A stretch of DNA of 35,846 nucleotides from a virus (IMGVR_UViG_2529293061_000007); one strand, 5' to 3'. Shown: positions 29,173 through 29,845, numbered from the stretch's first letter. The notes: generated from the sequence alone by a model not told the origin. Program-made: numbers and translations.

Positions 29173-29200
29173 CCAGGATTCCCCTCACATGTATTGCTGG

Positions 29201-29228
29201 TTGTAAGTCATAAATAGAGTGATAGAAT
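29201..29228 (+). promoter_or_regulatory. candidate sigma70 promoter for the tail-region moron
   Basis: TTGTAA (29201-29206), 16-nt spacer, TAGAAT (29223-29228) in an AT-rich intergenic segment. Confidence 0.4.
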
Positions 29229-29263
29229 TAATGCACATTTAGAAAAATGTTAATAGGCGAAAA

Positions 29264-29794
29264 ATGAAAGGCTATATCACAGCAAGTGTAATTCTTGGAG
29301 TAGCGGCTATTTTTTCATCTCTCATAATCTCTGGCAACATCTCCTTTAAAGATGAACATATTATTCAGTTATCTGGAGGAGCCATAAAACTTGGTGATGT
29401 TTATAAAGAAAATAAATTGATAAGTGCAAAGATTATTTTTCCAGATAATCAGGGTGAACAGATTCTTGTTGTCGACGGCAATCCTGAAAACTTTAAGGAG
29501 GATTTTCAGGAGAAATTAAATAAAGTAATAAAAACTTTAAATGCGTCAAAGAAAAAAGATGAAGAGAAAGTTAGCCTGGATAATTTGAGTGTTATTGAAG
29601 AGTCTAAACTAGAGCTCGTTTCTGCGGTGCGTTACTCTGCTCAGTATGTTCCTATGTTTACTTTGACGCTGGACAAAAAAGAAATTACCATGCCTAAAAA
29701 TACGGTAATATTTCCATTTGCCAGCGATGAAACAGCTAAGTATTTAAATGAACAACAGCAAAAGTATAAAGATTCGTTGTTTCTGACTCGCTAA
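29264..29794 (+). CDS. AT-rich moron: membrane-anchored protein (176 aa), function unknown
   Basis: N-terminal hydrophobic helix (ITASVILGVAAIFSSLIISG) then K/E-rich soluble domain; AT-rich; inserted between tape-measure and gpN-like genes; own terminator. Confidence 0.6.
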   Translation: MKGYITASVILGVAAIFSSLIISGNISFKDEHIIQLSGGAIKLGDVYKENKLISAKIIFPDNQGEQILVVDGNPENFKEDFQEKLNKVIKTLNASKKKDEEKVSLDNLSVIEESKLELVSAVRYSAQYVPMFTLTLDKKEITMPKNTVIFPFASDETAKYLNEQQQKYKDSLFLTR

Positions 29795-29811
29795 TTAATA
29801 AAATTCATTAC

Positions 29812-29845
29812 AAGGCCACCTTCTAATAGGTGGCTTTTTTATTTT
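29812..29845 (+). terminator. intrinsic terminator after the tail moron
   Basis: Stem AAGGCCACC / GGTGGCTT with 8-nt loop followed by TTTTTTATTTT. Confidence 0.7.

What the first reader, a model, noticed from the sequence alone, without database searches (positions are those of the whole stretch)
29173..29845. Moron inside the tail module: promoter-like element, membrane-anchored 176-aa protein and strong terminator between tape-measure and gpN-like genes
Mu-like tail modules normally run from tape-measure straight into the DNA-circulation gene. Here an AT-rich cassette is inserted with a sigma70-like promoter (TTGTAA-16-TAGAAT), a protein with one N-terminal TM helix and a K/E-rich extracytoplasmic or cytoplasmic domain, and a clean terminator (29812-29845). 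Autonomously expressed membrane proteins at such sites are typically superinfection-exclusion, receptor-masking or host-envelope-modifying factors. This one has no recognisable family.
Basis: seen in the sequence. Interest (0 to 1): 0.6.

Follow-up and report, generated by a model that had tools for sequence, protein, structure and literature searches.

The report
Accessory membrane-protein gene in phage tail operon
A small, AT-rich, self-contained gene cassette sits in a swap-prone slot of an SfV-like E. coli prophage's tail operon and encodes an uncharacterised inner-membrane-anchored periplasmic protein, most likely one that blocks entry of other phages, though that role is untested.

Summary
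A 34%-GC cassette at 29173-29845 sits between the tape-measure gene and the DNA-circularization (Mu gpN-like) gene. It has a 176-aa ORF, a promoter-like site and a strong hairpin plus T-run.

It is not a tail component. The viable phages SfV, SfI and SfII, and most of about 1,094 E. coli genomes with this tail module, have an empty slot. Other genomes carry unrelated cargo there.

It behaves as mobile cargo:
- A relative lies between Q and the holin gene in a Citrobacter prophage.
- The cassette survives alone in a decayed Lelliottia prophage.
- It also survives a doubly deleted E. coli prophage.
- dN/dS is 0.04-0.2.

The family has at least 78 clusters at 50% identity, with no Pfam, NCBIfam, PADLOC or PDB match. 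Members are single-pass proteins, N-terminus in the cytoplasm, with a periplasmic alpha/beta domain (AF2 pLDDT 89.6). The only structural relative is a lipoprotein of the virulent Pseudomonas phage ventosus.

One correction: the terminator belongs to the slot, not the insert. Empty alleles have one too, and a Q antiterminator explains late read-through.

Best guess is superinfection exclusion at DNA entry, like HK97 gp15. This is inferred, not shown. I rate it a new member of a known kind, of moderate interest.

The parts
27340..29172 (+). Tail tape-measure protein gene (610 aa). This is the left flank. Its last few codons differ between slot alleles, so the left recombination boundary lies near 29150-29172.
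   Evidence: PF10145 at 2.5e-26. The 3' ends differ between alleles: RFW*, RFGR*, RFR*, RFGMGG*.
29173..29263 (+). AT-rich leader of the cassette
   Evidence: GC about 0.34-0.38. Absent from empty-slot alleles.
29201..29228 (+). Sigma-70-like promoter candidate, TTGTAA-16-TAGAAT with TG extended -10. The predicted transcription start is near 29235.
   Evidence: 9 of 12 matches, TG present. A -35-like TTGYMA aligns at the same position in the Leclercia and Lelliottia copies, but the -10 is variable. Function was not tested.
29264..29794 (+). CDS of 176 aa (RefSeq WP_000679479.1 is 99.4% identical, 1 substitution). It is an uncharacterised single-pass inner-membrane protein.
   Evidence: dN/dS is 0.04-0.2. 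PHROG 5485.
29270..29335 (+). Signal-anchor transmembrane helix (residues 3-24)
   Evidence: AF2 helix at 3-22. Across the family the uncharged stretch has a median of 21 residues, the N flank has net charge +0.94 and the C flank -0.66, and the segment is internal in 3 members.
29357..29776 (+). Periplasmic alpha/beta domain (residues 32-171). Order of elements: four beta strands, helix 74-93, loop, two beta strands, helix 149-171.
29812..29845 (+). Intrinsic terminator: 10-pair hairpin plus T-run
   Evidence: dG -15.6 kcal/mol, z -6.0. An equivalent hairpin occupies the same position in empty and other alleles.
29847..31184 (+). GGAG ribosome-binding site and DNA-circularization (Mu gpN-like) gene, with ATG at 29856. 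This is the right flank. Sequence conserved across alleles resumes at the T-run.
   Evidence: PF07157 at 6.5e-34. Junction alignment.
13026..13778 (+). Q-type antiterminator. It accounts for how late transcription can read through the 29812-29845 terminator into the baseplate genes.
   Evidence: PF03589 at 6.3e-54. Read-through is inferred from what is known of lambdoid Q proteins.

Best explanation
The cassette is a horizontally acquired accessory unit (a moron), not a virion part. It occupies a recombination-prone slot between the tape-measure gene and the gpN-like gene of an SfV-like prophage integrated at thrW.

It encodes a single-pass inner-membrane protein. The short N-terminus lies in the cytoplasm, one helix anchors the protein, and a roughly 145-residue alpha/beta domain sits in the periplasm.

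Proposed mode of action:
1. In the lysogen the gene is transcribed from its own promoter, and transcription stops at the hairpin.
2. During lytic growth, Q-modified RNA polymerase reads through the cassette.
3. The periplasmic domain intercepts the genome-delivery apparatus of incoming phages (tape-measure protein or tail tip) at the periplasm/inner-membrane step. This gives superinfection exclusion without masking the outer-membrane receptor, as HK97 gp15 does.

Shown here: insert status, mobility, purifying selection, retention in decayed prophages, topology and fold. Inferred: expression in the lysogen and the exclusion function.

My confidence that it is an autonomous accessory gene encoding a periplasm-facing envelope protein is about 0.9. 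My confidence in exclusion specifically is about 0.4, and that is the figure given for this explanation.
For: Insert, not a tail part:
- SfV, SfI and SfII have an empty slot.
- Of 5,426 complete E. coli genomes, 1,094 have the flanks and only 179 have this cassette.

Hotspot with unrelated cargo:
- a 164-aa protein with a signal peptide, in 85 genomes;
- an OB-fold protein matching PHROG 8545 'superinfection exclusion Sie-like', in 72 genomes;
- a 225-aa lipoprotein with an LLGGC lipobox, in 55 genomes;
- a bPH_1 protein, in 28 genomes.
Most of these cargos are targeted to the cell envelope.

Mobility:
- Relatives occupy the same slot in Leclercia (52% identity) and Edwardsiella (40% identity) prophages.
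- A Citrobacter relative (31% identity) lies between antiterminator Q and the holin gene, a different classic moron site.
- All copies examined have 34-40% GC.

Selection and retention:
- dN/dS is 0.04-0.2.
- In Lelliottia only 190 nt of upstream sequence, the gene and its terminator survive, next to icd.
- In E. coli GPEC349-628 two deletions flank an intact cassette.

Topology.

Phage-centred role: the only structural relative is a lipobox-anchored 144-aa protein of the 97-kb Pseudomonas phage ventosus (Foldseek E 1e-6; hhalign E 7e-5 over 131 columns). I read ventosus as virulent from its gene content. A virulent phage gains nothing from host virulence factors but can gain from exclusion.

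Precedent: HK97 gp15 is a moron next to the tape-measure gene, sits in the inner membrane, and blocks DNA entry (PMC3594210).
Against: - There is no homology to any known exclusion or defence protein. Pfam, NCBIfam and PADLOC give nothing, and PHROG gives only an unknown-function family.
- There is no expression or phenotype data.
- The promoter match is no better than chance density in AT-rich DNA. Its -10 is not conserved in relatives. AT-rich inserts in E. coli are often silenced by H-NS (general knowledge).
- Keeping the same slot across three genera could instead reflect a functional link with the phage's own tail genes.
- The link to phage ventosus is remote: 12-15% identity and hhalign probability 63%.
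Confidence: 0.4

Rival explanations
1. Lysogenic-conversion factor serving host fitness rather than phage exclusion. A periplasm-facing envelope protein might protect against colicins, bacteriocins, periplasmic T6SS effectors, serum or envelope stress, in the way lambda Bor and Lom or Cor's colicin M protection work.
For: - The same cassette logic and envelope location apply.
- The gene is retained as an orphan in Lelliottia and in a decayed E. coli prophage where no phage remains to benefit.
- The cassette is at least 99% identical across 167 records from varied hosts.
- A distant Alkanindiges relative is chromosomal, next to HipBA, and not in a phage tail.
Against: - A relative with the same fold occurs in the virulent phage ventosus, which gains nothing from host virulence or serum resistance.
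- There is no similarity to any known immunity or virulence family.
- Orphan retention fits exclusion equally well, because exclusion also benefits the host.
Confidence: 0.3
2. Non-essential lytic-cycle helper of its own phage. Made late by read-through, it would act in the periplasm. It might tune lysis timing, protect progeny from futile injection into lysing cells, or assist tape-measure or tail-tip function on entry.
For: - It lies inside the late tail operon and is transcribed by Q-antiterminated polymerase.
- It keeps exactly this slot across E. coli, Leclercia and Edwardsiella at 40-52% identity.
- The relative in a virulent phage must act during infection.
Against: - Viable phages with near-identical tails lack it.
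- The slot accepts unrelated cargo, including one on the opposite strand.
- The Citrobacter relative lies outside any tail module.
- The gene is retained after the tail and lysis genes are lost.
- The prophage has its own holin, and ORFs follow it that match genes annotated as lysozyme and Rz/Rz1 in a related E. coli prophage.
Confidence: 0.15
3. Structural or assembly component of the Mu-type tail that annotation has missed.
For: Its position between two tail genes, and conserved synteny in three genera.
Against: - SfV, SfI, SfII and roughly 60% of related E. coli prophages have a 60-bp empty junction.
- A periplasmic membrane anchor is incompatible with cytoplasmic tail assembly.
- GC is about 34% against about 55% for the tail genes.
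Confidence: 0.02
4. Decaying or meaningless ORF in junk AT-rich DNA.
For: No annotated family. The promoter match is at chance level.
Against: - dN/dS is 0.04-0.2.
- There are at least 78 family clusters at 50% identity, nearly all full length at 170-180 aa.
- The AF2 model is confident, with pLDDT 89.6.
Confidence: 0.01

Closest known systems
HK97 gp15 moron (Cumby et al. 2012; reviewed in PMC3594210)
   Same: Both are AT-rich, self-contained cassettes inside a tail operon next to the tape-measure gene, and both are absent from close relatives. Both encode a small inner-membrane protein. gp15 blocks DNA entry of other phages in a manner that depends on the incoming phage's tail, without masking the receptor.
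   Different: There is no sequence relationship: gp15 belongs to the YebO family, and no such Pfam hit was found here. gp15 lies between the tail chaperone gene and the tape-measure gene of a siphovirus, whereas this gene lies between the tape-measure and gpN-like genes of a contractile Mu-type tail. This protein has a large folded periplasmic domain. Its function is untested.
Anchored extracytoplasmic exclusion proteins of Gram-positive phages (lactococcal Sie2009 type; Streptococcus TP-J34 Ltp lipoprotein, PMC3952083)
   Same: The architecture matches: an N-terminal anchor (transmembrane helix or lipid) plus an extracytoplasmic domain of roughly 140-150 aa. Ltp is reported to target the tape-measure protein (my recollection of Bebeacua et al. 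2013). The swap between a transmembrane helix here and a lipid anchor in phage ventosus parallels this.
Lipoprotein CNR37_00111 of Pseudomonas phage ventosus (MG018930; UniProt A0A2H4P829)
   Same: It is the only significant structural match (Foldseek E 1e-6, TM-score 0.55/0.65). The sequence alignment is colinear and includes the GxVxxGxV..E hairpin motif and the C-terminus.
   Different: It uses a lipobox (LLTGC) anchor instead of a transmembrane helix. It is 144 aa and 12-15% identical. It comes from a 97-kb virulent phage and is not in a tail operon. Its function is also unknown.
Lambda-type tail-region and late-region morons (lom, bor, cor of phi80/N15)
   Same: These are envelope-targeted accessory proteins embedded in or beside late operons, with deviating GC content. 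They are read through by antiterminated late transcription.
   Different: Those are outer-membrane proteins or lipoproteins with known roles (adhesion, serum resistance, FhuA blocking). This is an inner-membrane signal-anchor protein from an unrelated family.

Membership tests
Moron (Juhala/Hendrix definition) | Lies between two genes that are adjacent in related phages | tested here: met
   SfV, SfI, SfII and many E. coli prophages have the tape-measure and DNA-circularization genes 60 bp apart.
Moron (Juhala/Hendrix definition) | Base composition differs from the surrounding phage genes | tested here: met
   GC is 0.34 against 0.50-0.60 in the flanks. Relatives in other hosts have 0.34-0.40.
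Moron (Juhala/Hendrix definition) | Own promoter upstream and terminator downstream | tested here: inconclusive
   The terminator is strong but is shared with empty alleles. The promoter-like site is present, but hits occur at chance density and its -10 is not conserved. Survival as an orphan with 190 nt of upstream sequence suggests an internal promoter.
Moron (Juhala/Hendrix definition) | Expressed from the repressed prophage | not testable with these tools
   This needs RNA-seq or 5'-RACE on lysogens.
HK97 gp15 / YebO family | Sequence homology to YebO-like proteins | tested here: not met
   No Pfam family matches at E up to 1, either for the protein or consistently across 62 relatives.
Known superinfection-exclusion families (T4 Imm, Sie-like PHROG 8545, Cor, Llp, SieA) | Profile match to a family annotated as exclusion | tested here: not met
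   The PHROG search returns only 5485 and 34391 (unknown function) and two noise-level hits at E 0.014 or weaker. Pfam and NCBIfam return nothing. Of the named families, only those with a model in these libraries were actually tested.
Known anti-phage defence systems (PADLOC-DB 2.0) | Match to any defence-system protein model | tested here: not met
   No families at E up to 1. None of the four alternative cargos matches either.
Mu-type tail structural or assembly proteins | Present in all functional phages with this tail, and located in the cytoplasm during assembly | tested here: not met
   Absent from SfV, SfI and SfII. The predicted domain is periplasmic.
Bacterial lipoproteins | Lipobox [LVI][ASTVI][GAS]C at the end of the signal peptide | tested here: not met
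   The protein has no Cys. The remote relative in phage ventosus does have LLTGC.
Single-pass (type II, signal-anchor) inner-membrane proteins | A single uncleaved hydrophobic helix of about 20 residues, with positive charge on the cytoplasmic side | tested here: met
   In 71 family members the median span is 21 residues, the N flank has net charge +0.94 and the C flank -0.66. The segment is internal in P0088, P0094 and P0098. AF2 predicts a helix at 3-22. This is prediction only, with no fusion data.

The most novel reading that the evidence does not exclude
The protein may be the founding example of an undescribed family of phage periplasmic proteins with a fold not seen in solved structures. 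Members are anchored either by a transmembrane helix (enterobacterial prophages) or by a lipid (Pseudomonas phage ventosus). The family would block genome delivery by other phages at the periplasm/inner-membrane step. On this reading the TMP|gpN junction of SfV-like phages is an uncharted hotspot that collects mainly envelope-directed anti-phage cargo, with five or more alleles in E. coli.
Probability: 0.3. Interest if true: 0.65.

Novelty: new member of a known kind. Interest (0 to 1): 0.45.

Why it matters
Tail-operon morons that encode envelope proteins are a known class, including HK97 gp15, lom and cor. Very few have a defined target.

This one offers several things:
1. A clean natural experiment. 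There are empty, filled and alternatively filled alleles on near-identical tail backbones in hundreds of sequenced E. coli genomes.
2. A confident structural model with no solved relative.
3. A family that spans temperate enterobacterial phages and a virulent Pseudomonas phage.

If it excludes phages, it would add an entry-blocking mechanism acting against or alongside contractile-tailed phages. It would also mark the TMP|gpN junction as a place to mine for envelope-level defences, which cytoplasm-focused defence catalogues miss. If it does not, it is one more unknown-function moron.

Tried and rejected
Searches that found nothing:
- Pfam, NCBIfam and PADLOC on the protein.
- Pfam on 62 family members one by one: no family recurs beyond noise.
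- A PDB sequence-profile search: best E 0.52.
- tblastn against 50,697 deposited phage genomes: no match.
- Literature searches for WP_000679479 and for a TMP/DNA-circulation hotspot.

Searches that failed or were unavailable:
- The afdb50 Foldseek library was unavailable.
- The search for related loci with alignments A4 and A5 failed because no stretch was conserved enough. With A1 on genome contigs it found nothing.
- Scans of viral contigs with the Mangrovibacter, Alkanindiges and P0031 relatives found nothing.
- Brenes & Laub 2025 is not held in the library.

Ideas considered and rejected:
- Structural tail protein. Rejected because the slot is empty in viable phages.
- Cleaved signal peptide giving a soluble periplasmic protein. 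Unlikely, given the 21-residue hydrophobic span and the internal position in three relatives.
- Spanin or lysis role. The prophage has its own lysis cassette, and the fold is globular alpha/beta rather than coiled coil.
- Tab- or Tai-like block of tail assembly. Tab is a small protein that blocks tail assembly, a cytoplasmic process (my inference); this domain is periplasmic.
- SNIPE-like membrane nuclease. There is no nuclease domain.
- My early guess that the prophage sits at icd was wrong. It sits at thrW next to proA. The Lelliottia orphan is the one next to icd.

Full report
**1. What is in the sequence**

The window holds a lambdoid-regulated prophage with a Mu-type contractile tail. It is integrated at tRNA-Thr(CGT) (1369-1444) beside a proA-like gene (Aldedh family). 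Its genes include:
- an integrase at 1459-2622 (-);
- an S24 repressor at 6493-7167 (-);
- a Q antiterminator at 13026-13778;
- a holin gene at 14799;
- the large terminase subunit at 17879;
- the tail sheath gene at 25078, the tube gene at 26573 and the tail chaperone gene at 26929;
- the tape-measure gene (TMP, PF10145) at 27340-29172;
- a DNA_circ_N (Mu gpN-like) gene, with ATG at 29856, ending at 31184.

The tail module is 96-97% identical to Shigella phages SfV, SfI and SfII.

- GC drops to 0.29-0.38.
- TTGTAA-16-TAGAAT with a TG extended -10 lies at 29201-29228.
- A 176-aa ORF lies at 29264-29794.
- A 10-pair hairpin plus T-run lies at 29812-29845, with dG -15.6 kcal/mol, z -6.0 and 0 of 200 shuffles folding as well.

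On its own the promoter match is not better than chance, with 5 hits against 4.5 expected.

**2. It is an insert in a hotspot, not a tail gene**

Of 5,426 complete E. coli genomes, 1,094 carry the flanking TMP/gpN sequence, but only 179 carry the cassette. In 167 of the 181 matching records the cassette is at least 99% identical.

Most other genomes, and the viable phages SfV, SfI and SfII, have the two genes 60 bp apart.

The same slot holds unrelated, equally AT-rich cargo in other genomes:

| Cargo | Features | E. coli genomes |
|---|---|---|
| 164-aa protein | signal peptide; also in phage SKA5 | 85 |
| OB-fold protein | tRNA_anti-like; on the opposite strand; matches PHROG 8545 'superinfection exclusion Sie-like'; N-terminally truncated in the copy I read | 72 |
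| 225-aa protein | LLGGC lipobox | 55 |
| bPH_1 protein | bacterial PH domain (PF08000) | 28 |

None of the cargos is related to another by BLASTP, and none matches PADLOC. Four of the five, counting this one, are targeted to the cell envelope. For the OB-fold cargo this rests on a longer version that RefSeq annotates as 'OB-fold putative lipoprotein'.

The variable segment runs from the last codons of the tape-measure gene to the hairpin stem. Conserved sequence resumes at TTTTTAT..GGAG..ATG.

**3. The terminator belongs to the slot**

The empty allele has its own hairpin plus T-run (dG -13.9 kcal/mol), which the SfII GenBank record annotates as a terminator. The bPH allele (-11.8), the lipoprotein allele (-14.9) and the Leclercia alleles have one too, at the same distance from the gpN-like gene's ribosome-binding site.

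The stems differ in sequence but all pair (CCCAC/GTGGG, CCCGC/GCGGG, GGCCACC/GGTGGCC), so the structure itself appears to be conserved. The Q antiterminator at 13026-13778 explains how late transcription passes it. That step is inferred from what is known of lambdoid Q proteins.

**4. The gene moves and is retained**

- Relatives at 52-57% identity sit in the same slot in Leclercia prophages.
- A relative at 40% identity does so in an Edwardsiella prophage. Its flanking tape-measure protein is 34% identical and its gpN-like protein 68% identical to those of the window.
- A Citrobacter relative at 31% identity instead lies directly after antiterminator Q and before the holin gene. That is a different classic moron site.
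- A distant Alkanindiges relative is chromosomal, next to hipBA.
- In Lelliottia amnigena, 190 nt of upstream sequence (including about 120 nt of the tape-measure 3' end), the gene and its terminator are all that survive of a prophage. They lie next to icd.
- In E. coli GPEC349-628, two deletions equivalent to window 17115-28874 and 29963-34060 leave the cassette intact between tape-measure and gpN pseudogenes.
- dN/dS is 0.04-0.2 wherever dS is not saturated.

**5. The protein**

A profile search of 1.84 billion cluster representatives found 78 clusters at E up to 1e-3. Nearly all are full length at 170-180 aa. Named members come from Edwardsiella, Mangrovibacter, Citrobacter, Leclercia, Lelliottia and Alkanindiges.

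The family has no Pfam, NCBIfam, PADLOC or PDB sequence match. Its only library match is PHROG 5485, of unknown function.

Across 71 members there is one uncharged hydrophobic stretch with a median of 21 residues. The N flank has net charge +0.94 and the C flank -0.66. In three members the stretch is internal, starting at residues 39-117. It is therefore an anchor rather than a cleaved signal peptide, and the C-terminal domain faces the periplasm.

Foldseek against viral models gives one significant hit, a 144-aa lipoprotein of Pseudomonas phage ventosus (E 1e-6, TM-score 0.55/0.65). I located the gene at MG018930 51995-52429 (-). It has a canonical LLTGC lipobox. Its mature sequence aligns colinearly with the family, with hhalign E 7e-5 over 131 columns at probability 63%. 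The same periplasmic domain is therefore used with either a helical or a lipid anchor, and also by a 97-kb phage that I read as virulent from its gene content.

**6. Interpretation**

I am confident, at about 0.9, that this is an autonomous accessory cassette encoding a periplasm-facing, inner-membrane-anchored protein.

For function I commit to superinfection exclusion at the DNA-entry step, at about 0.4. The reasons are:
- the architecture (an anchor plus an extracytoplasmic domain of about 145 aa), which parallels Sie2009 and Ltp;
- the position beside the tape-measure gene, which parallels HK97 gp15 (PMC3594210);
- the neighbouring alleles, which include a Sie-like protein and other envelope proteins;
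- the relative in a virulent phage, which favours a phage-centred role.

The main rival, at about 0.3, is a host-fitness conversion factor such as protection against bacteriocins, T6SS effectors, serum or envelope stress. Orphan retention fits that equally well. A dispensable lytic-cycle helper, at about 0.15, is kept alive by the conserved slot in three genera. The structural-component and junk-ORF readings are effectively excluded.

**7. Novelty and score**

The kind of element is well known: a tail-operon moron encoding an envelope protein. The protein family, its fold and the multi-allele TMP|gpN hotspot are not described in the literature I could search. I rate it a new member of a known kind, with interest 0.45. 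It is a well-defined and cheap-to-test candidate, not a surprise in principle.

Noticed in passing
window 29812-29855; L001 2095-2136; L002 2533-2569; L004 2855-2894; L020 2049-2087: A hairpin plus T-run directly before the gpN-like gene's ribosome-binding site is kept in the empty allele and most filled alleles of the slot. The stem sequences differ but still pair (CCCAC/GTGGG, CCCGC/GCGGG, GGCCACC/GGTGGCC). This looks like a conserved terminator in the middle of the tail operon, and its role in the empty allele is unexplained.
   Followed up: partly
window 13801-14800 (ORF 13981-14766, +): This is a second low-GC island (0.33), between antiterminator Q and the holin gene. It holds a 261-aa protein with no Pfam match that matches PHROG 5322 (unknown function) and has no evident signal or transmembrane segment. 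It is probably another moron in the classic Q|S slot.
   Followed up: partly
window 16201-16840 (ORF 16232-16840, +): This is a third low-GC island (0.38), after the lysis genes and before the terminase genes. It holds a 202-aa protein that matches PHROG 9842 (unknown function). It is probably another moron, at the slot where lambda carries bor.
   Followed up: partly
L003 2105-2491 (-); hits H133-H136: The OB-fold 'Sie-like' cargo lacks a normal start codon and the first ~40 positions of its PHROG profile in strain GN05505. Other genomes carry a longer version (about 140 bp more), annotated 'OB-fold putative lipoprotein'. The slot therefore also holds decaying cargo.
   Followed up: partly
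L014 5811-6581 (Lelliottia amnigena, next to icd): This is an orphan copy of the cassette. It keeps about 120 nt of the tape-measure 3' end and the terminator but no other prophage DNA, and it sits directly downstream of icd, a known prophage attachment region. It is still under purifying selection (dN/dS about 0.04 against the Leclercia copy).
   Followed up: yes
L010/L011/L015 8013-9820: Leclercia prophages carry two extra genes with no Pfam match (about 505 aa and 94 aa) between the gpN-like gene and the baseplate hub gene. The window and SfV lack them. This may be another variable slot in the same tail module.
   Followed up: no
L022 9136-14349 (Alkanindiges): The distant family member lies beside a hipBA toxin-antitoxin pair and a 970-aa AAA_5 protein. 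This could be an accessory or defence-island setting.
   Followed up: no
window 35736-35846 vs L008 5844-5955: The tail-fibre end of the window matches the related prophage in inverted orientation. This is consistent with an invertible tail-fibre segment, or with a different arrangement of the fibre assembly genes.
   Followed up: no
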